DNA from: a phage | Length of the DNA: 64,000 nucleotides | Assembly: GCA_026683435.1 (NCBI GenBank) | Contig: GCA_026683435.1_4866.1 | Direction: 5' to 3' (one strand) | Part shown: positions 18,371 to 59,406 of the stretch, in pieces | Position numbering within the stretch: the first letter of the stretch is position 1 | How the letters are laid out: the number at the start of each line of letters is the position of its first letter | Position numbers and translations under genes: made by a program | The notes under the pieces: model-generated | The model's database searches: none | Told to the model about the DNA's origin: nothing | Seen by the model: the letters and a program-made list of their open reading frames with translations, nothing else

Positions 18371-18450
18371 TTAAAACTCCTTAAGATAATGGTCGATTAG
18401 ATAAGAGTTAATGGTTAACTCTCACCTAAGTAATATATATCTGAAAATAA
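18371..18450 (-). repeat. duplicated promoter-leader unit (copy 1 of 2; partner 37126..37205)
   Basis: About 80% identity by eye with small indels; both contain the core motif, a stem-loop (agagttaa...ttaactct) and an AAGGAG SD. Confidence 0.6.
18424..18448 (-). promoter_or_regulatory. conserved quasi-palindromic promoter/operator-like element, copy 1
   Basis: Plus-strand cacctaagtaatatatatctgaaaa; coding-strand core AGATATATATTACTTAGG contains a -10-like TATATT. Confidence 0.5.
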
Positions 18451-22967: not shown

Positions 22968-22992
22968 ACTGAGATAATATCTATCTGAAATA
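22968..22992 (-). promoter_or_regulatory. promoter/operator-like element, copy 2
   Basis: Plus cactgagataatatctatctgaaat; leader stem ctctga...tcagag follows. Confidence 0.5.
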
Positions 22993-28112: not shown

Positions 28113-28322
28113 TTATTTTTCCTCTTTCAATATCTCAGCAACCGCTTTGCGACACGCGTTCACAGCGTCAGGATAAGTGCTATTGTTCGGGTCTACTCGA
28201 TCAATACACATTCTGAACGTGCTGGTTGCGGTCTCTCGACGTTCTGCAGTGCGGGTACTGGTACTGACGGCGATATAAATACAGAACAACACAGCAGCTG
28301 CGATCGGCCAACGTAGATTCAT
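28113..28322 (-). CDS. small membrane protein (69 aa, one N-terminal TM helix)
   Basis: WPIAAAVLFCIYIAVS hydrophobic segment followed by a charged tail. Confidence 0.45.
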   Translation of the reverse strand: MNLRWPIAAAVLFCIYIAVSTSTRTAERRETATSTFRMCIDRVDPNNSTYPDAVNACRKAVAEILKEEK

Positions 28323-29020
28323 CAGTAATCCCCTGTTGCCCCTATCGCAGTCGCTACTTTACCGACGACCTCGTCAACCGGAAGTACCACCTCGTCTTTC
28401 TTGCTCACAATCTCTGGTACTTCTTTGACATGTTCAACGGTCACGTCAAACTTCCGAGTATAACCAACAAGTAACTTTGCCATATCTGCACGACTAACGA
28501 ACTGTTGTTCTTCCGACAGATGTAACGACGTATCAAGTAGTCCAGAATGCATGAAGTTTTCAATGAGTTGGTCTTCTTCCTCTTTGAAGTCGTACCGCTC
28601 GTTCGGGGCGGCCACAAATGCATAACCGAAATACTTCCCCTCTTCCTGTTCAGGGCGTAACGATTTAACTAACTCCTCAGCGTGTTCACAGAAGTCCGCC
28701 AAAGTATAATCGTCAAGTGTGGCAACTGCGGTTTCTGTTACAATTTCACCGGTGTCGAGTTCAGTGAGGTGCATCACCCAAAGATGCCATGGTCGCGGTT
28801 GGTCGAACAGCCCACCGACTAACATATCTGTGGCGATAGCACGAATGCGAGGACTTGCCGTAAAGTGAAAACCACGGCCCGCGTACGGCCCGAGGCGACG
28901 AATCGAACTGCCGATAAACGTGATACGATTCAGAGCGTTTTCAGCGACGGTGTGTGCCGTACGTTCTGTGGCAACTTTCGGGTTATACTTTTTGTTACGG
29001 GGTTTCTTTTGCTTAGCCAT
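28322..29020 (-). CDS. hypothetical protein with basic N-terminus (232 aa)
   Basis: Track ORF extends to 29149; ATG at 29020 (MAKQKKPRNKKYNPK...) avoids overlap with the upstream gene. Confidence 0.55.
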   Translation of the reverse strand: MAKQKKPRNKKYNPKVATERTAHTVAENALNRITFIGSSIRRLGPYAGRGFHFTASPRIRAIATDMLVGGLFDQPRPWHLWVMHLTELDTGEIVTETAVATLDDYTLADFCEHAEELVKSLRPEQEEGKYFGYAFVAAPNERYDFKEEEDQLIENFMHSGLLDTSLHLSEEQQFVSRADMAKLLVGYTRKFDVTVEHVKEVPEIVSKKDEVVLPVDEVVGKVATAIGATGDY

Positions 29021-29063: not shown

Positions 29064-29621
29064 TTAAAAATAGTCTTTCTTATTTTCGCTACGCGGGAAC
29101 TCAGCGAAGGGGACGGTTCCGTTTTCATCGAGCTTTGCAACCAGCTCACTGAATTTCATGAACGGTACAAAACGGTTATTGCCGGGGAACACCGAACAGA
29201 TTTTCTCAATGCGCTCAATCGTCCAGTTCCCGTTTTCAGGATCAAGGTCAGGGTTTAATGCGAGGTGCTCAATAAAGGTCGACAGCAGCGACGATTCTCT
29301 ATCTTCGGGAATCACCACTACGCGATGATGACTGTGGGTTGAAACCAAACGATAGTTCGGCCCCGCTAACTTGACGTCTAAGATTTCACCCCCTGCTCGA
29401 ATCAACGTACCGGCGTAAGTGATTTCTTCATGACGCAGGTTATCCTTACCCGTGTTCAGTACGTCCGTTAACATCCGTACGTTTTCCGTTGGGAACCACC
29501 AACCGTGTATGGTGAAGTGTTCTTCTGGGTTACTGGGCATGGGTAGGTTTAAGCCAACGTGGTTCGTGTTGACGTAAATCTGGTCGTCGATAATAACGCC
29601 TGAGATATAAACGTTATTCAT
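29064..29621 (-). CDS. hypothetical protein (185 aa)
   Basis: ORF track; ATGA-type overlap with upstream gene. Confidence 0.6.
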   Translation of the reverse strand: MNNVYISGVIIDDQIYVNTNHVGLNLPMPSNPEEHFTIHGWWFPTENVRMLTDVLNTGKDNLRHEEITYAGTLIRAGGEILDVKLAGPNYRLVSTHSHHRVVVIPEDRESSLLSTFIEHLALNPDLDPENGNWTIERIEKICSVFPGNNRFVPFMKFSELVAKLDENGTVPFAEFPRSENKKDYF

Positions 29622-30142
29622 TTACGCAAATCCTCTCTGTAAACCACGTCGCATTTACGACTGGTCATGGGGTCAATGTACGATACCAACTGAACGATGT
29701 TCTTCGGCTCCATCCCGCAAGCCCAACCACAGATTGCTAAATCCCCTCCGCTACCAAACCCAATAGGTGCACGCAAGTCCAGCTCATCAACCATCAGTAT
29801 TTTGTTGGGTTCTGGCATGTTGGTGTTCGGGTCTTCCAACGACATCATGGAGTTATGCAATTTAAAGGATTTGGTGCGGGTCATTATCAGCAACGTATCG
29901 AATGCAATGAACTGGTTGATAAATGCTTCCGCTGCTTCGCGTGCTTTACGCTTGCCAAATACGAAAGCGTAGACCGCCTTGTCGAGTTTTACACGTTGTT
30001 CGGTAGTTGGGTGGCTGGAACCAAAGAAATACGCTATACGGCCTTTTAAGACCTGTATTTTCGTATCATCAACAACCATTCCATTCAGCAACACTGCGCG
30101 GTCACCAACGAGGTAGTCTTGAGTGAATAATACCGTGGTCAC
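29618..30142 (-). CDS. HslV/proteasome-beta-like Ntn-hydrolase (tentative)
   Basis: GTG start with AAGGAGG SD; N-terminus M-TTVLFTQDYLVGDRAV (compare HslV TTIVSVRRNGHVVIAGDG) and PIGFGSGGDLAI (compare HslV IAIGSGG). Confidence 0.4.
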   Translation of the reverse strand: MTTVLFTQDYLVGDRAVLLNGMVVDDTKIQVLKGRIAYFFGSSHPTTEQRVKLDKAVYAFVFGKRKAREAAEAFINQFIAFDTLLIMTRTKSFKLHNSMMSLEDPNTNMPEPNKILMVDELDLRAPIGFGSGGDLAICGWACGMEPKNIVQLVSYIDPMTSRKCDVVYREDLRK

Positions 30143-30152
30143 GCGACCTCCT

Positions 30153-30194
30153 TAAAAAAGAAAAAAGACGTCCTACTCCCGAAGGAGTAGGACA
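30153..30194 (-). terminator. hairpin terminator after gene 30200..30544
   Basis: gtcctactcc-cgaa-ggagtaggac preceded (plus) by aaaaaagaaaaaag. Confidence 0.7.
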
Positions 30195-30199
30195 CCGAA

Positions 30200-30544
30200 T
30201 TAGAAGTGCTTACGGAAGATAGACTCGTTGCAGGTCTCCCCACGCGTCTTACCACGAGACACGGTGGTTTTGTTTGCAGCAGTTTTACCATCACCCACAG
30301 CGGTCTTCGCCAGCGGCAGACGTTCGCTTGCACCACGGAATGCGTAGTAGCGAATGTTTTCTGGGGCAGCGACATCGCCTTCGAACTGGAAGGTGATACC
30401 TTTACGCAGTGACTTGTAGGTGTAGCCTTTCAAGTCCAGCGTCTGCGGCAGTGCATTTTCATCGGCACCATGTTGGTAGTGGATAACCGTACCTACACGT
30501 TTGATGACGATATACATCTGCGCTGCTTTTGGTGCTTTGGCCAT
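30200..30544 (-). CDS. small, apparently highly expressed protein (114 aa), N-terminus MAKAPK
   Basis: ATG at 30544 with AAGGAG SD; strongly biased codon choice (ctg, cgt, ggt, aaa); own promoter-like element and terminator. Confidence 0.65.
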   Translation of the reverse strand: MAKAPKAAQMYIVIKRVGTVIHYQHGADENALPQTLDLKGYTYKSLRKGITFQFEGDVAAPENIRYYAFRGASERLPLAKTAVGDGKTAANKTTVSRGKTRGETCNESIFRKHF

Positions 30545-30592
30545 TCTCGATACTCCTTATAGATTAAAATGTGAGGGAGAAAACAATCTTCT

Positions 30593-30618
30593 CCCCTAGA
30601 TAACATCTATCTGAAAAG
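30593..30618 (-). promoter_or_regulatory. promoter/operator-like element, copy 3
   Basis: Plus cccctagataacatctatctgaaaag; leader stem gggagaa...ttctccc. Confidence 0.5.
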
Positions 30619-30625
30619 TAATGCG

Positions 30626-30952
30626 TTAGAGGCGGATTTGCAGCTGGATAGGATCGCTGTTTTCTCTGTGGGTATCAGGCCAGCAGAAAATACGATGATG
30701 TACGCGACTTATCTCAACCACTAACCCGATAGCGGGTACAAACAGGAACACGTTCAGCGGCATGGTGAAGTCAATCTTACTTTCAAGATTGGTGAAGTGG
30801 ACTTCTTTGTTATCCACCCCAATCACCTGTGCGTACACCTGCCGTGCTTCCGGCGGACACCCTAACGACTTCTGAAACGCAGACTGCATCCGAATGAGTA
30901 GCTCACTCGGCGACAGTTCATCGCGGACATCAATGAGGGATGGGCTCGACAT
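30626..30952 (-). CDS. hypothetical protein (108 aa)
   Basis: ORF track. Confidence 0.55.
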   Translation of the reverse strand: MSSPSLIDVRDELSPSELLIRMQSAFQKSLGCPPEARQVYAQVIGVDNKEVHFTNLESKIDFTMPLNVFLFVPAIGLVVEISRVHHRIFCWPDTHRENSDPIQLQIRL

Positions 30953-31244
30953 GGTGGTTGGTATCCAGTACGAAGGAGTTCTCGCCGGTCTTTTTCGCCA
31001 GCGCCCACATCCACTTGTCGGTGGACTTGTCGTGCCACGATGCTAACCACACGCCATCGACAATGCCTGCGGTGTCAACTTCCGGGTGGAACAGCATGTA
31101 TTCGTTTTCTTCCGCATCGAGGACAACGAACTGCCCTTCCTCCATACGGTCGAAGTTAGCGACACCAACGGTAATCGGTTCCGCATCGACAGAAAGGGTC
31201 ACTTCACGTTTTGGCAGGTCACGATGAATAGCACTTAACCACAT
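30930..31244 (-). CDS. hypothetical protein (104 aa)
   Basis: ORF track. Confidence 0.55.
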   Translation of the reverse strand: MWLSAIHRDLPKREVTLSVDAEPITVGVANFDRMEEGQFVVLDAEENEYMLFHPEVDTAGIVDGVWLASWHDKSTDKWMWALAKKTGENSFVLDTNHHVEPIPH

Positions 31245-35640: not shown

Positions 35641-35677
35641 AAAGACAAAAAATTAAGGGGTCCGAAGACCCCTTAAT
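35641..35677 (-). terminator. hairpin terminator after gene 35680..36336
   Basis: ttaaggggtc-cgaa-gaccccttaa preceded (plus) by aaaaagacaaaaaa. Confidence 0.7.
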
Positions 35678-35679
35678 GA

Positions 35680-36336
35680 TTACAGTTCAGGTTTGGAGAC
35701 AAGCGCCGTCCAAGTTTCAGAATGTTTGATACTGACGTGCGCCAAGCGATTCACCATGAACGCAAATTTGTCCATATGCTTCTGCACTTCGTTATCAGTC
35801 AGATTACCAGCGATAACTTTACCGTCTTTGGTCAGCACGATATAACCGTGGTTGTTGTCTACAGTAGTAAACGCCACGTCAATCGTAACTGGGTACAGTT
35901 TCACCAGCGTCGGCAGAATATGACCAACACGATCCGCCATACCCGCAAGCTGACCACAAAGGTCGGCTTTATCCTGCATGAACAAACGCAACATCGCTAC
36001 TGCAAACACCGGATAGATGTTTTCGATTTGCGTGTCGTAACGAGACAGACCGATAACTTCATCACCACGGGTTAGCACCATGTTGTTCAGATGCGCGCCT
36101 TTATAGATGGTAAAGCGTACGTCGCTACCAAGGTTAACCGCAACGATTTCCTGACCAAGGTCAATCGGATATTCGCGCTCGATGTGAATTGTTTTCAGAC
36201 GTTCACTGATTGGTACAATTACATCCGGTTTAGGAATGGTAGGTGGGCGTGGAGATTCGGTAGTACGCGTTTTTGTGGCTTTAATCGCGTTGCTTGCCGT
36301 TGAATCTTTTGCTACAGTTTTAGGGGCCTTCGCCAT
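35680..36336 (-). CDS. hypothetical protein (218 aa), N-terminus MAKAPK
   Basis: Track ORF extends to 36414; ATG at 36336 with AAGGAG SD. Confidence 0.6.
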   Translation of the reverse strand: MAKAPKTVAKDSTASNAIKATKTRTTESPRPPTIPKPDVIVPISERLKTIHIEREYPIDLGQEIVAVNLGSDVRFTIYKGAHLNNMVLTRGDEVIGLSRYDTQIENIYPVFAVAMLRLFMQDKADLCGQLAGMADRVGHILPTLVKLYPVTIDVAFTTVDNNHGYIVLTKDGKVIAGNLTDNEVQKHMDKFAFMVNRLAHVSIKHSETWTALVSKPEL

Positions 36337-36358
36337 GATATACTCCTTAAGGGTTATA

Positions 36359-36748
36359 TTAGTTATCCCAGAAAGCTGCTTCTGGAAAGTCGTGTTCAAA
36401 TGCCCGACGGTCATTCTCTACACGGTTTAAATGTGTCGGTAAAGACACACAGTTATTACAGATACAAAGTTCTTTATCCCCTTGACTGGGGTCAAAGTCG
36501 TGCCATTTCCACTCAACAGTATCCCGTTTCGGGAAGGTACCTTTGCAATCGTCGCAGACCACTTCTTCAGCTGCAATTTCAGCCTGCAGTTTTTCCCAGC
36601 AGTCTTCGCACATGTAATACGTTTCGCGGCCCCATGGGTCGCACTCTGCCGTATAGCGCGGGGCTATAGAGCCCACTTTAAGATGTTTACATCGATCATC
36701 CTCTTCCGTCATCACGCGACGGGTGATACCATTTACAAACCAATTCAT
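36359..36748 (-). CDS. Cys-rich zinc-ribbon protein (129 aa)
   Basis: Multiple CxxC pairs (CEDCW, CDDCKG, CICNNC). Confidence 0.55.
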   Translation of the reverse strand: MNWFVNGITRRVMTEEDDRCKHLKVGSIAPRYTAECDPWGRETYYMCEDCWEKLQAEIAAEEVVCDDCKGTFPKRDTVEWKWHDFDPSQGDKELCICNNCVSLPTHLNRVENDRRAFEHDFPEAAFWDN

Positions 36749-36759
36749 ATGTTTGCTCC

Positions 36760-37125
36760 CTACATTACTGCAGAAGGTTTACGTGCCATGACTTTGAGTC
36801 CTGTTTCTCGTACCCGGATAGGACAGTTATTCATGTAGTCGGTGCAGGATTCAATTTTGAAGCTATGGCGGCATTTGCCGTTGATGGAACGGTAAACGAT
36901 TTCGTAATTCAGGCGCAGTGTATCGGCAACACGCATCAGAGTTTCGATAGTCACGGCTTTCTCGCGTTCATTTTTAATCGCAGAGATTTGTGACGGTGAG
37001 CAGCCTACCAACAATGCAATGTCTTTCTGCGTAACATCCTTCGCAGTGACACGAGTAATAATGTAAGAGAGACGAACCAGAAATGCTTTCTTTGCCAACA
37101 CAACGGTTTGATGTTTAAAACGCAT
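36760..37125 (-). CDS. XRE-type helix-turn-helix DNA-binding protein
   Basis: TQKDIALLVGCSPSQISAIKNEREKAVTIETLMRVADTL fits the Cro/C1 HTH pattern; ATG at 37125 with AAGGAG SD, directly downstream of element copy 4. Confidence 0.7.
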   Translation of the reverse strand: MRFKHQTVVLAKKAFLVRLSYIITRVTAKDVTQKDIALLVGCSPSQISAIKNEREKAVTIETLMRVADTLRLNYEIVYRSINGKCRHSFKIESCTDYMNNCPIRVRETGLKVMARKPSAVM

Positions 37126-37205
37126 TAGAATACTCCTTTAGATTAATAGTCGATTAGAGAGTTTAGTAGTAACTCTCACCTAAGTAATATATATCTGAAA
37201 TTTAG
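37126..37205 (-). repeat. duplicated promoter-leader unit (copy 2 of 2; partner 18371..18450)
   Basis: Shares core motif, stem-loop (gagagtt...aactctc) and SD with the 18.4-kb copy. Confidence 0.6.
37177..37201 (-). promoter_or_regulatory. promoter/operator-like element, copy 4
   Basis: Plus cacctaagtaatatatatctgaaa (identical core to copy 1). Confidence 0.5.
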
Positions 37206-38876: not shown

Positions 38877-38904
38877 TCCCTAAGATAACATCTATCCAAA
38901 AAAG
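38877..38904 (-). promoter_or_regulatory. promoter/operator-like element, copy 5
   Basis: Plus tccctaagataacatctatccaaaaaag. Confidence 0.45.
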
Positions 38905-59183: not shown

Positions 59184-59209
59184 CACGTAGATAATATCTA
59201 TCTCAGATT
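59184..59209 (-). promoter_or_regulatory. promoter/operator-like element, copy 6
   Basis: Plus cacgtagataatatctatctcagatt, about 40 nt upstream of ATG 59149. Confidence 0.5.
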
Positions 59210-59380: not shown

Positions 59381-59406
59381 TCCCTAAGATAATATCTATC
59401 TATAAA
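59381..59406 (-). promoter_or_regulatory. promoter/operator-like element, copy 7
   Basis: Plus tccctaagataatatctatctataaa, just downstream (minus sense) of the terminator. Confidence 0.5.

What the first reader, a model, noticed from the sequence alone, without database searches (positions are those of the whole stretch)
30200..30544. Two MAKAPK-initiated genes with signs of high expression
30200..30544 (114 aa) and 35680..36336 (218 aa) both begin MAKAPK, both have AAGGAG SDs, and the first is strongly codon-optimised with its own promoter-like element and terminator. Small abundant early proteins are candidates for host-takeover or nucleoid-binding factors.
Basis: seen in the sequence. Interest (0 to 1): 0.4.

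Follow-up and report, generated by a model that had tools for sequence, protein, structure and literature searches.

The report
Two early jumbo-phage genes sharing MAKAPK
Two unrelated genes of a giant Salmonella phage that both start MAKAPK are built for early, strong expression; one encodes a small, very basic beta-barrel protein that probably binds nucleic acid, but neither has a proven function.

Summary
The window is an SPN3US-like nucleus-forming jumbo phage, and both genes lie on the minus strand. Both proteins start MAKAPK, both genes have an AAGGAG ribosome-binding site, and both are followed by a strong UUCG-loop terminator.

Gene A (30200..30544) has the second-highest codon adaptation of 78 window ORFs; only the major capsid gene is higher. 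It sits directly behind a phiKZ-type early (virion RNA polymerase) promoter motif. That promoter-gene-terminator unit is conserved in Seoulvirus, Machinavirus and Erskinevirus relatives.

Gene A is a divergent homologue of SPN3US gp112 (phrog_12339, non-virion). It has a roughly 70-residue OB/small-beta-barrel domain and a Lys/Ala-rich disordered tail (pI about 10), plus a conserved C-terminal motif.

Gene B is SPN3US gp103 (phrog_32024). It is the third gene of a separate early operon and is unrelated to gene A beyond the six N-terminal residues.

The shared MAKAPK is best read as convergent: basic tails that begin at the start codon. In gene A it aligns with the inter-domain linker of two-domain relatives.

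My best guess for gene A is an abundant, accessory, early nucleic-acid or ribosome binder. This is inferred, not shown. A published SPN3US gp112 amber allele still allowed DNA-filled heads to form. Interest is modest.

The parts
30598..30616 (-). phiKZ-type early (virion RNA polymerase) promoter motif TTTCAGATAGATGTTATCT, directly upstream of gene A
   Evidence: The motif has 7 hits in the window against 0.2 expected, all on the minus strand. It fits the published consensus TTTCARRYAKATATTATY with one mismatch, and the AT-rich core is reported to be centred near -10. The same motif precedes the homologues in SPN3US, Huxley, pSal-SNUABM-04, Asesino, pEa_SNUABM_29 and two metagenomic relatives.
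30575..30596 (-). Predicted stem-loop at the inferred 5' end of the gene A mRNA (GGGGAGAA...TTCTCCC)
   Evidence: It forms a 10-bp stem at -12.7 kcal/mol, which is not better than shuffled sequence (z=-0.4). Purine-arm/pyrimidine-arm hairpins of different sequence sit at the same place in 6 of 8 homologous leaders. RNAalifold finds no consensus structure on a plain alignment. This part is weak and unresolved.
30553..30558 (-). Shine-Dalgarno AAGGAG, 8 nt before the ATG of gene A
   Evidence: Read directly from the sequence. 13 of 78 ORFs carry the full hexamer.
30200..30544 (-). Gene A: 114-aa homologue of SPN3US gp112 (phrog_12339), 12.6 kDa, pI 9.85
   Evidence: Matches phrog_12339 at E=4.8e-16. 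It is 35% identical to SPN3US gp112 and 47% to the Machinavirus two-domain proteins. CAI rank is 2 of 78. The SPN3US orthologue is absent from the virion proteome.
30311..30517 (-). Small beta-barrel (OB/SH3-like) domain, residues 10-78
30203..30310 (-). Disordered basic tail (residues 79-114) ending in the conserved C-terminal motif RG(A/E)T(P/C)N(V/E)SI(L/F)RKHF (residues 101-114, 30203..30244)
   Evidence: pLDDT is below 50 for residues 84-104. The tail carries net charge +5. The C-terminal motif is conserved in the Machinavirus-type and metagenomic relatives.
30157..30196 (-). Intrinsic terminator of gene A: 13-bp stem, UUCG loop, T-run
   Evidence: Found by the terminator scan. It folds at -20.6 kcal/mol, z=-4.6, and 0 of 200 shuffles fold as well. 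Terminators follow all the homologues.
37182..37200 (-). Early promoter motif TTTCAGATATATATTACTT of the operon that contains gene B
   Evidence: Exact match to the motif. It contains the phiKZ core TATATTAC. It is conserved upstream of the gp101 homologues in SPN3US, pEa_SNUABM_29 and SPAsTU.
36760..37125 (-). First operon gene: gp101 homologue, an HTH_3 (Cro/C1-type) DNA-binding protein
   Evidence: Pfam HTH_3 at E=2e-7. Annotated as a transcriptional regulator in SPN3US.
36359..36748 (-). Second operon gene: gp102 homologue, Cys-rich (CxxC pairs), probably a zinc ribbon
   Evidence: The translation shows the CxxC pairs. The only family hit is a weak SprT zinc-ribbon match at E=0.0016.
35680..36336 (-). 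Gene B: 218-aa orthologue of SPN3US gp103 (phrog_32024). It has a basic disordered N-terminal tail (residues 1-42, net +5) and a globular part with pI 6.2. AAGGAG lies at 36348..36343.
   Evidence: Matches phrog_32024 at E=1e-148. It is 95-98% identical to SPN3US-group proteins. Orthologues at 34-35% identity keep MAKAP. CAI rank is 4 of 78. The AlphaFold2 model failed, mean pLDDT 45.6. gp103 is not in the SPN3US virion list.
35642..35677 (-). Intrinsic terminator ending the gp101-gp103 operon: 11-bp stem, UUCG loop, T-run
   Evidence: Found by the terminator scan. It folds at -17.2 kcal/mol, z=-5.1. It is conserved in the orthologous loci.

Best explanation
Gene A is a self-contained early transcription unit of an SPN3US-like nucleus-forming jumbo phage. 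A phiKZ-type early promoter, read by the injected virion RNA polymerase, drives a roughly 440-nt monocistronic mRNA. That mRNA has a strong AAGGAG site, an A-rich MAK start and near-capsid-level codon adaptation, and it ends at a UUCG-loop terminator. The architecture predicts a protein made in large amounts within minutes of infection.

The product is non-virion, about 12.6 kDa and strongly basic (pI about 10). It has a small OB/SH3-like beta-barrel, Lys/Ala(/Pro)-rich disordered segments at both ends, and a conserved C-terminal peptide. I infer that it acts stoichiometrically by binding nucleic acid, either RNA/ribosomes or DNA. The barrel would be the binding module, the basic tails would add electrostatic affinity, and the C-terminal peptide may dock a partner. 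I also infer that it is an accessory factor that helps establish infection, not a core one.

Gene B (gp103) is an unrelated protein. It is made from a second early operon, after an HTH regulator and a Cys-rich protein.

The shared MAKAPK is convergent. It is the start of a histone-H1-like basic tail placed directly after the initiator codon, in a favourable Ala-Lys initiation context.

Shown here: the promoter motif, SD, CAI, terminators, family membership, synteny, predicted fold class and charge. Inferred: timing, abundance, ligand and role.
For: Expression architecture:
- The motif has 7 hits against 0.2 expected and matches the published early-promoter consensus.
- The promoter-gene-terminator unit is conserved around homologues that are only 30-47% identical, in three genera and in metagenomic contigs.
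- The terminators fold far better than shuffles, z=-4.6 and -5.1.
- CAI rank is 2 of 78, z=+5.1.
- CAI tracks abundance in SPN3US. gp75, gp53, gp54, gp141, gp255 and gp256 top both the CAI list and the spectral counts, and the chimallin gene ranks third.

Protein:
- The barrel is predicted with confidence, pLDDT 82-92.
- The whole family has pI 9.9-10.4 and net charge +9 to +20.
- Tandem two-domain versions exist, as is common for OB binders.
- The SPN3US orthologue is not in virions.

Accessory status:
- Gene A lies in a swapped five-gene cassette between flanks 92-100% identical to SPN3US.
- The SPN3US gp112 amber allele is tolerated up to DNA-filled heads.

Convergence of MAKAPK:
- The two proteins share no similarity beyond the six residues.
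- The codons differ.
- Gene A's N-terminus aligns with the K/A/P-rich inter-domain linker of the Huxley gp124 gene.

Precedent: the earliest abundant phiKZ proteins bind host ribosomes.
Against: - No transcript or protein measurement was available. The SPN3US infection proteome paper is not held.
- The SPN3US orthologues have lower CAI ranks, gp112 at 31 of 268 and gp103 at 21 of 268.
- Basic charge alone does not prove nucleic-acid binding.
- PmrD and IraM, which are protein-binding connectors, superpose with the lowest rmsd.
- MAKAP is conserved at the protein level across gp103 orthologues that are otherwise 34% identical, with synonymous codon differences. That hints at a peptide-level function which pure convergence does not explain.
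Confidence: 0.45

Rival explanations
1. Gene A encodes a protein-binding connector or counter-defence factor. The small barrel, or its conserved C-terminal peptide, would titrate a host protein such as a regulator, a protease adaptor or a defence sensor. High early dosage would serve stoichiometric inhibition, and the basic tails would be incidental or act as docking peptides.
For: - A short C-terminal motif is conserved after a disordered linker, which is typical of docking peptides.
- The gene is fast-evolving, lies in a swapped cassette and is dispensable in the laboratory host. These are hallmarks of accessory anti-host genes.
- The SPN3US-clade tails end in KRKRAVA, RSRATA or KGKLAVA. From memory, these resemble ClpX C-terminal recognition motifs. 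This was not tested.
Against: - No hit was found in any family library. PADLOC, which in any case models defence rather than anti-defence proteins, was not searched.
- The uniformly very basic charge across the family is more typical of nucleic-acid binders.
- No candidate partner is identified.
Confidence: 0.2
2. MAKAPK is a functional shared N-terminal signal, not a coincidence. After Met removal, the AKAPK end would be recognised by one common factor, for example a modifying enzyme, an import or targeting factor, or the ribosome through a nascent-chain effect. Two unrelated early proteins would then be co-regulated or co-localised through it.
For: - Only 0.003 pairs sharing six N-terminal residues are expected by chance.
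- MAKAP is invariant in gp103 orthologues down to 34% identity, while the rest of the tail diverges and the codons vary synonymously.
- MAKAPK is kept in a 54%-identical gene A relative, P0020.
Against: - The SPN3US-clade gp112 proteins start MAKQY, and other relatives start MAKAKK, MAKSTAK or MNQVKF. The motif is therefore not a family requirement.
- In two-domain relatives the same peptide is internal, KKAPKA.
- Both tails are K/A/P-rich, which raises the chance of a match well above the simple estimate.
- MAK starts are, from my own knowledge, common in highly expressed enterobacterial genes.
- No N-terminal signal of this kind is known for these phages.
Confidence: 0.1
3. Nothing special: these are two ordinary accessory early genes. 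The expression signals are generic for this phage, and the codon bias of a short gene overstates abundance.
For: - AAGGAG occurs at 13 of 78 ORFs.
- Strong terminators are frequent in this region, five in 13 kb.
- The SPN3US orthologues rank only 21st and 31st of 268 by CAI.
- Gene A is only 114 codons long.
- Both families are 'unknown function' PHROGs.
Against: - The CAI of gene A remains extreme after resampling synonymous codons for its own amino-acid sequence (p=2e-4).
- The promoter-gene-terminator unit is conserved across proteins only 30-47% identical.
- Only 8 strict early-promoter motifs occur in all of SPN3US, and one of them serves gp112 alone.
Confidence: 0.15

Closest known systems
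SPN3US gp112 (SPN3US_0112 / YP_009153406; phrog_12339) and its Erskinevirus orthologues (Asesino gp127, Stratton gp130, phiEaH2)
   Same: Same family (phrog E=4.8e-16; aligned barrel with invariant R16, F54, G56, N63). Same genomic slot after the gp110/gp111 homologues. Same early promoter motif and a terminator. Non-virion and strongly basic.
   Different: Only 31-35% identical to gene A. These proteins start MAKQY rather than MAKAPK. Their tail ends in RSRATA or KRKRAVA rather than SI(L/F)RKHF. CAI is lower (0.40, rank 31 of 268).
Machinavirus two-domain proteins (Huxley gp124, Machina gp160, pSal-SNUABM-04 gene 115; 179-194 aa)
   Same: These are the closest characterised-genome relatives, at 47% identity. 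They share the C-terminal motif RGATPNVSILRKHF. Promoter, leader and SD are almost identical, up to the start codon.
   Different: They carry two tandem barrels joined by a K/A/P-rich linker. The window gene has one barrel, and its MAKAPK N-terminus aligns with that linker (KKAPKA). A domain was either lost or gained exactly at the start codon.
SPN3US gp103 (SPN3US_0103; phrog_32024)
   Same: Gene B is its orthologue, 95% identical (other SPN3US-group phages reach 98%) over the full length. It has the same operon position after the HTH gp101 and the Cys-rich gp102, and the same terminator.
   Different: Nothing material. No function is known for the family, and it is confined to Seoulvirus-type phages.
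OB-fold nucleic-acid binders (cold-shock domain, S1/IF1, IF5A/EF-P N-domains, PAN OB ring)
   Different: No sequence-family match, and no RNP1/RNP2 motifs in the cold-shock-domain order. The scores are below the usual significance level. The predicted 3-10 turn between strands 4 and 5 is, from my own knowledge, more SH3/Sm-like.
phiKZ gp014 (PHIKZ014), the early ribosome-binding protein of phiKZ
   Same: A jumbo-phage, non-virion protein made immediately and abundantly after infection. It is dispensable in the laboratory strain and has a beta domain plus a disordered region.
   Different: No sequence relation (it belongs to phrog 16056, gene A to 12339). It is about 50 kDa and has helical domains that clamp 5S rRNA. 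Ribosome binding by gene A has not been tested.
Bacterial/phage SSB architecture (OB domain, disordered linker, conserved C-terminal tip)
   Same: The order of modules is the same: barrel, disordered linker, short conserved C-terminal peptide.
   Different: In gene A the tip is basic and hydrophobic (SIFRKHF), not acidic (DDDIPF-type). The linker is Lys-rich, not Gly/Pro/Gln-rich. There is no SSB Pfam hit.

Membership tests
SPN3US gp112 family (phrog_12339) | Significant profile match over the globular domain | tested here: met
   phrog_12339 E=4.8e-16 over residues 8-76. tblastn and phmmer hits reach E=6e-32.
SPN3US gp112 family (phrog_12339) | Conserved genomic slot and its own early promoter plus terminator | tested here: met
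   Synteny with the gp108-gp117 homologues. The motif and a terminator are present in 8 related loci.
SPN3US gp103 family (phrog_32024) | Full-length profile match and operon position after the HTH gp101 and gp102 | tested here: met
   E=1e-148 over 1-218 of 218. 95% identity to SPN3US gp103. Same gene order.
phiKZ-type early (virion RNAP) promoters | Conserved AT-rich motif (TTTCARRYAKATATTATY / TATATTAC) upstream of the first gene of an early operon | tested here: met
   7 hits against 0.2 expected. One mismatch to the published consensus. Located at the starts of transcription units, after terminators.
phiKZ-type early (virion RNAP) promoters | Mapped transcription start about 10 nt downstream of the motif centre, active in the first minutes and independent of host RNAP | not testable with these tools
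   No transcript data exist for this phage.
Intrinsic (factor-independent) terminators | GC-rich hairpin followed by a U-run directly after the stop codon | tested here: met
   (z=-4.6 and -5.1).
OB-fold nucleic-acid-binding proteins (CSD/S1/SSB type) | Five-stranded closed beta-barrel of OB topology | tested here: inconclusive
OB-fold nucleic-acid-binding proteins (CSD/S1/SSB type) | Match to a CSD, S1 or SSB sequence family, or their RNP motifs | tested here: not met
   No Pfam or NCBIfam hit for any of the 25 family members. The PDB profile search found nothing.
OB-fold nucleic-acid-binding proteins (CSD/S1/SSB type) | Binds single-stranded nucleic acid | not testable with these tools
   Needs EMSA or fluorescence anisotropy with the purified protein.
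phiKZ gp014-type ribosome-associated early proteins | Homology to PHIKZ014 (phrog 16056) | tested here: not met
   Gene A hits only phrog_12339. Its tblastn hits are confined to Seoulvirus, Machinavirus and Erskinevirus.
phiKZ gp014-type ribosome-associated early proteins | Co-sediments with 50S/70S ribosomes | not testable with these tools
   Needs gradient fractionation.
PmrD/IraM small connector proteins | PmrD-like six-stranded barrel that binds a response regulator | tested here: inconclusive
Paralogue pair (gene A and gene B as relatives) | Detectable similarity beyond the N-terminal hexapeptide | tested here: not met
   BLASTP aligns only MAKAPK (E=0.19). hhalign probability is 0.1%.

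The most novel reading that the evidence does not exclude
Gene A could be a ribosomal-protein-like early factor: small, pI about 10, a beta-barrel with basic extensions, an MAK start and near-capsid codon bias. It would load onto host ribosomes or onto phage early mRNAs within minutes of infection. On this reading, the MAKAPK end it shares with the unrelated early protein gp103 would be a genuine N-terminal signal read by one common host or phage factor. That would define a second, structurally new class of jumbo-phage translation-takeover proteins alongside phiKZ gp014.
Probability: 0.1. Interest if true: 0.6.

Novelty: new member of a known kind. Interest (0 to 1): 0.3.

Why it matters
Most of the several hundred genes of nucleus-forming jumbo phages have no known function. 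The first minutes of infection, before the phage nucleus exists, are the least understood stage.

This analysis picks out, from sequence alone, a conserved single-gene early transcription unit whose design predicts one of the most abundant early non-virion proteins of SPN3US-like Salmonella and Erwinia phages. It also gives the product a concrete, testable shape: a basic OB-like barrel, an H1-like tail and a C-terminal docking peptide.

In addition, it supplies the early-promoter consensus for this phage group, TTTCAGATAKATRTTAYYT followed by AGGKGAGA. That consensus can be used to annotate early operons.

The finding is still an uncharacterised 'hypothetical protein' in a known family, and it is probably dispensable in the laboratory host. 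Its importance is that of a good experimental lead, not a discovery.

Tried and rejected
- Sequence-family searches found nothing usable for either protein. This covers Pfam, NCBIfam and PDB, as single sequences and as profiles.
- The gp103 AlphaFold2 model was unusable, mean pLDDT 45.6. No fold search was run on gp103.
- The afdb50 fold library was unavailable.
- BFVD returned only family members and uncharacterised jumbo-phage proteins.
- The SPN3US infection time-course proteome (Weintraub 2019, PMC6384053), which would settle abundance, is not held. Literature searches for gp103 or gp112 function, and for histone-like or OB proteins of Chimalliviridae, found nothing relevant.
- A host sigma-70 promoter for gene A is rejected. 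No site lies upstream, and such sites are fewer than in shuffles.
- A known RNA element in 27-40 kb is rejected. There are no Rfam hits.
- The 5' leader hairpin as a proven element is not accepted. Its energy is not above shuffles and there is no RNAalifold consensus.
- The phmmer hits to long repeat proteins are rejected as homology. P0025 has MucBP-like repeats; P0026 and P0029 are low-complexity. The hits are summed weak local matches.
- The depositor's 'HslV/proteasome' note on the gene downstream of the pSal-SNUABM-04 homologue was not reproduced with Pfam.
- The idea that the two MAKAPK genes are paralogues is rejected.
Full report
WHAT THE WINDOW IS. Megablast places the region in the SPN3US group of giant Salmonella, Escherichia and Erwinia phages (Seoulvirus). 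Identity to SPN3US and its relatives is 95-96% over most of 31.1-37.5 kb. The genes here run on the minus strand. These phages carry their own virion and non-virion RNA polymerases and form a chimallin nucleus.

THE OBSERVATION. It is correct in every element.
- Start peptide: 30544..30200 encodes a 114-aa protein and 36336..35680 a 218-aa protein, and both start MAKAPK.
- Ribosome-binding site: each has AAGGAG, 8 and 6 nt before the ATG. That is strong but not rare, since 13 of 78 window ORFs have the full hexamer.
- Codon adaptation: using the Sharp-Li E. coli weights (retyped from memory), gene A has CAI 0.562. That is rank 2 of 78, behind only the PhiKZ_MCP capsid gene at 0.713. Gene B has CAI 0.451, rank 4.
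- Robustness of the CAI: resampling synonymous codons from the window's own usage gives z=+5.1 (p=2e-4) for gene A and z=+4.7 for gene B. An independent optimal-codon count ranks gene A 3rd of 71.
- Terminators: both genes are followed at once by long UUCG-loop hairpins with T-runs. No shuffle folds as well (z=-4.6 and -5.1).

CAI AS AN ABUNDANCE PROXY IN THIS PHAGE. In the complete SPN3US genome the highest-CAI genes are gp75, gp53, gp22, gp54, gp252, gp255, gp29 and gp141. gp75, gp53, gp54, gp141, gp255 and gp256 are also the highest spectral-count virion proteins. gp22 corresponds, by the reversed RefSeq numbering (my inference), to the chimallin homologue 'gp244' named. Gene A's value of 0.56 falls in this company. 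The SPN3US orthologues rank lower: gp103 is 21st and gp112 is 31st of 268.

THE PROMOTER. There is no sigma-70-like site upstream of gene A. That is expected for a phage that does not use the host polymerase.
- The 81-nt gap upstream of gene A begins with TTTCAGATAGATGTTATCT (30616..30598). The degenerate motif TTTCAGATADATRTTAYYT occurs 7 times in the window, always on the minus strand, against 0.2 expected.
- It matches the predicted early promoter of phiKZ-like phages: TTTCARRYAKATATTATY in N1M2 and OBP, and TATATTAC in phiKZ.
- A review states that such motifs, wherever tested, are the early promoters read by the virion polymerase, with the AT-rich core centred near -10.
- The sites share a downstream AGGKGAGA and usually a stem-loop.
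- From this I infer a start near 30595 and a monocistronic mRNA of roughly 440 nt.
- Gene B has no motif of its own. It lies 22 nt behind the gp102 homologue, which follows the gp101 homologue (HTH_3). The motif at 37200..37182 precedes that gene. Gene B is therefore the last gene of a three-gene early operon that ends at the 35677..35652 terminator.

CONSERVATION OF THE UNITS. The same motif, then a leader, an SD, the gene and a terminator flank the gene A homologues in five annotated phage genomes: SPN3US, pSal-SNUABM-04, Huxley, Asesino and pEa_SNUABM_29. In Stratton one extra gene sits between the promoter and the homologue. The same layout is found in metagenomic relatives that are only about 30-43% identical at the protein level and lie in the same gene neighbourhood. 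The gp101-103 operon, with its promoter and terminator, is likewise conserved in pEa_SNUABM_29 and SPAsTU. In all of SPN3US only 8 strict copies of the motif exist, and one serves gp112 alone.

WHAT GENE A ENCODES.
- Family: it belongs to phrog_12339 (unknown function, E=4.8e-16), the family of SPN3US gp112. It is a divergent member, 35% identical to gp112 over residues 8-83 and at most 47% identical to anything in the phage collection.
- Occurrence: the exact protein is nevertheless common on roughly 240-kb contigs in Salmonella sequencing projects.
- Family size: an exhaustive HMMER search of 1.8 billion representatives found only about eight true relatives.
- Domain layout: the family alignment shows a roughly 65-residue conserved core with invariant R16, F54, G56 and N63. 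A variable Lys/Ala/Pro-rich tail follows. In the window's clade the tail ends in a conserved C-terminal peptide, RGATPNVSILRKHF; the window has RGETCNESIFRKHF. The SPN3US clade ends in RSRATA or KRKRAVA instead.
- Predicted structure: AlphaFold2 on this alignment gives a confident six-stranded all-beta domain for residues 10-80 (pLDDT 82-92) and a disordered tail.
- Charge: the whole family is strongly basic, pI 9.9-10.4 and net +9 to +20.
- Virion status: the SPN3US orthologue is not a virion protein.

MOSAICISM AND DISPENSABILITY. The flanking genes are 100% (gp108, gp109) and 92-99% (gp115-117) identical to SPN3US. The five genes between them, 29064..31244, are different. Two are 79-88% identical to Erwinia Machinavirus Huxley. 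Three, including gene A, are only 47% identical to Huxley, and two of those three have no detectable SPN3US counterpart at E<1e-3; gene A itself is 35% identical to gp112. Gene A therefore sits in a recombination-swapped accessory cassette.

In SPN3US, mutant am27 carries amber codons in gp64 (Q291) and gp112 (Q34). On a non-suppressor host it still made DNA-filled, tailless heads containing 52 proteins. From this I infer that gp112 is not needed for takeover, replication, late expression or packaging in that host. The authors left its essentiality open.

THE MAKAPK COINCIDENCE.
- The two proteins are unrelated. BLASTP aligns only the hexapeptide and hhalign gives 0.1% probability. Their codons differ.
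- A simple positional model expects 0.003 such pairs, so this is not plain chance.
- Both proteins begin with Lys/Ala/Pro(/Thr)-rich basic tails, which makes such a match much likelier.
- In Machinavirus the gene A homologue has two tandem barrels. The window protein's MAKAPKAAQ aligns with the inter-domain linker, SKKAPKAEP. The promoter, leader and SD of the window gene are almost identical to Huxley's up to the start codon, after which the window continues with linker and domain 2. One barrel was lost or gained exactly at the start codon.
- Other relatives start MAKQY, MAKAKK, MAKSTAK or MNQVKF.
- Against pure convergence, gp103 orthologues at 34-35% identity keep MAKAP while using different codons. 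A peptide-level role cannot be excluded.

GENE B. It is the gp103 orthologue (phrog_32024, E=1e-148; 95-98% identity across the group). It is confined to Seoulvirus-type phages and absent from the virion list. It has a disordered basic N-terminal tail (net +5) and a mildly acidic alpha/beta body, pI 6.2. The structure prediction failed (mean pLDDT 45.6), and no family or PDB match exists. Its only functional clue is co-transcription with an HTH regulator and a Cys-rich protein.

MOST LIKELY MECHANISM. What is shown: gene A is a conserved, self-contained early unit with every sequence hallmark of high output, and it encodes a small, very basic barrel protein with disordered basic tails.

What is inferred: it is made in quantity in the first minutes and acts stoichiometrically on a polyanion, most likely RNA or ribosomes, or DNA. 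It is an accessory factor. The precedent is phiKZ gp014 and other early phiKZ proteins, which bind host ribosomes immediately after infection and are dispensable in the laboratory strain. There is no homology to them.

Rivals: a protein-binding connector or counter-defence factor (PmrD/IraM-like fold, C-terminal docking peptide, fast evolution); a genuine shared N-terminal signal; or nothing special. I put about 0.45 on the nucleic-acid-binder model as a whole. I put far more, about 0.85, on the expression architecture alone.

COMPARISON AND NOVELTY. Both genes are members of existing, uncharacterised PHROG families and are present in public data as 'hypothetical protein'. What is added here:
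- the assignment of a phiKZ-type early promoter;
- the monocistronic design;
- the codon-bias ranking;
- the fold class and module structure;
- the one-domain/two-domain relationship;
- the cassette swap.
This makes gene A a new member (variant) of a known kind, and a good experimental lead. It is not a surprise to a specialist.

Noticed in passing
window 18428-18446, 22972-22990, 30598-30616, 37182-37200, 38883-38901, 59189-59207, 59387-59405 (all minus strand): Seven copies of the early-promoter motif TTTCAGATAKATRTTAYYT, usually followed by AGGKGAGA and a stem-loop. They mark the starts of early transcription units across the window. Only 8 strict copies occur in the whole SPN3US genome.
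   Followed up: partly
window 29064-31244: A five-gene cassette has been swapped relative to SPN3US. The flanks are 92-100% identical to SPN3US. The inner genes resemble Erwinia Machinavirus (79-88% for two of them, about 47% for three). One breakpoint lies inside the gp110 homologue, near 31075.
   Followed up: partly
L019 (GenBank LR535907.1, Salmonella phage SPFM9) and sibling SPFM records: The deposited sequence has its 60-nt blocks in reversed order: the offset to SPN3US falls by exactly 120 per 60 nt. This produces scrambled 'proteins' (P0016-P0019, P0051-P0055) and fragmented BLAST hits. It is a database artefact.
   Followed up: yes
L015 6432-8192, L017 6432-8192, L022/L023 from 6164: Closely and distantly related phage contigs carry a 585-586-aa AAA_2/AAA ATPase gene 2-3 kb downstream of the gene A homologue. 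It is absent from the window, from SPN3US and from L016, so this neighbourhood is a variable accessory region.
   Followed up: no
window 30545-30596; L004, L005, L007, L020, L022 leaders: The leaders of gene A homologues carry purine-arm/pyrimidine-arm hairpins of different sequence right after the promoter. The gp101-operon leader hairpin changes compensatorily between SPN3US-type, pEa_SNUABM_29 and SPAsTU. The folding energy is not above shuffles, and RNAalifold finds no consensus on a plain alignment.
   Followed up: partly
gene A residues 28-57 (window 30374-30463) vs P0025: A local motif, LDLKGYTYKSLRKGITFQF, resembles the repeated LxIKGYTFKEVKGNxTGQF of MucBP-like repeats in a 1024-aa Gram-positive surface protein. 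phmmer gives E=2.4e-10, summed over 9 repeats. This is probably a convergent beta-hairpin motif.
   Followed up: no
window 29618-30142 (minus strand): The 174-aa gene starts with GTG just after gene A's terminator, behind an AAGGAGG site. The depositor annotated its pSal-SNUABM-04 homologue as HslV/proteasome-like. Pfam did not reproduce that for any of the three homologues tested.
   Followed up: partly
window 28322-29020 (minus strand): The gp115 homologue also starts with MAK plus a basic run (MAKQKKPRNKKYNPK). Only five SPN3US proteins start with MAK, and three of them (gp103, gp112, gp115) lie within this 8-kb early region.
   Followed up: no
window 36359-36748 (minus strand): The gp102 homologue is Cys-rich, with several CxxC pairs, and is probably a zinc-ribbon protein. 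It is co-transcribed with the HTH gp101 homologue and gene B.
   Followed up: no
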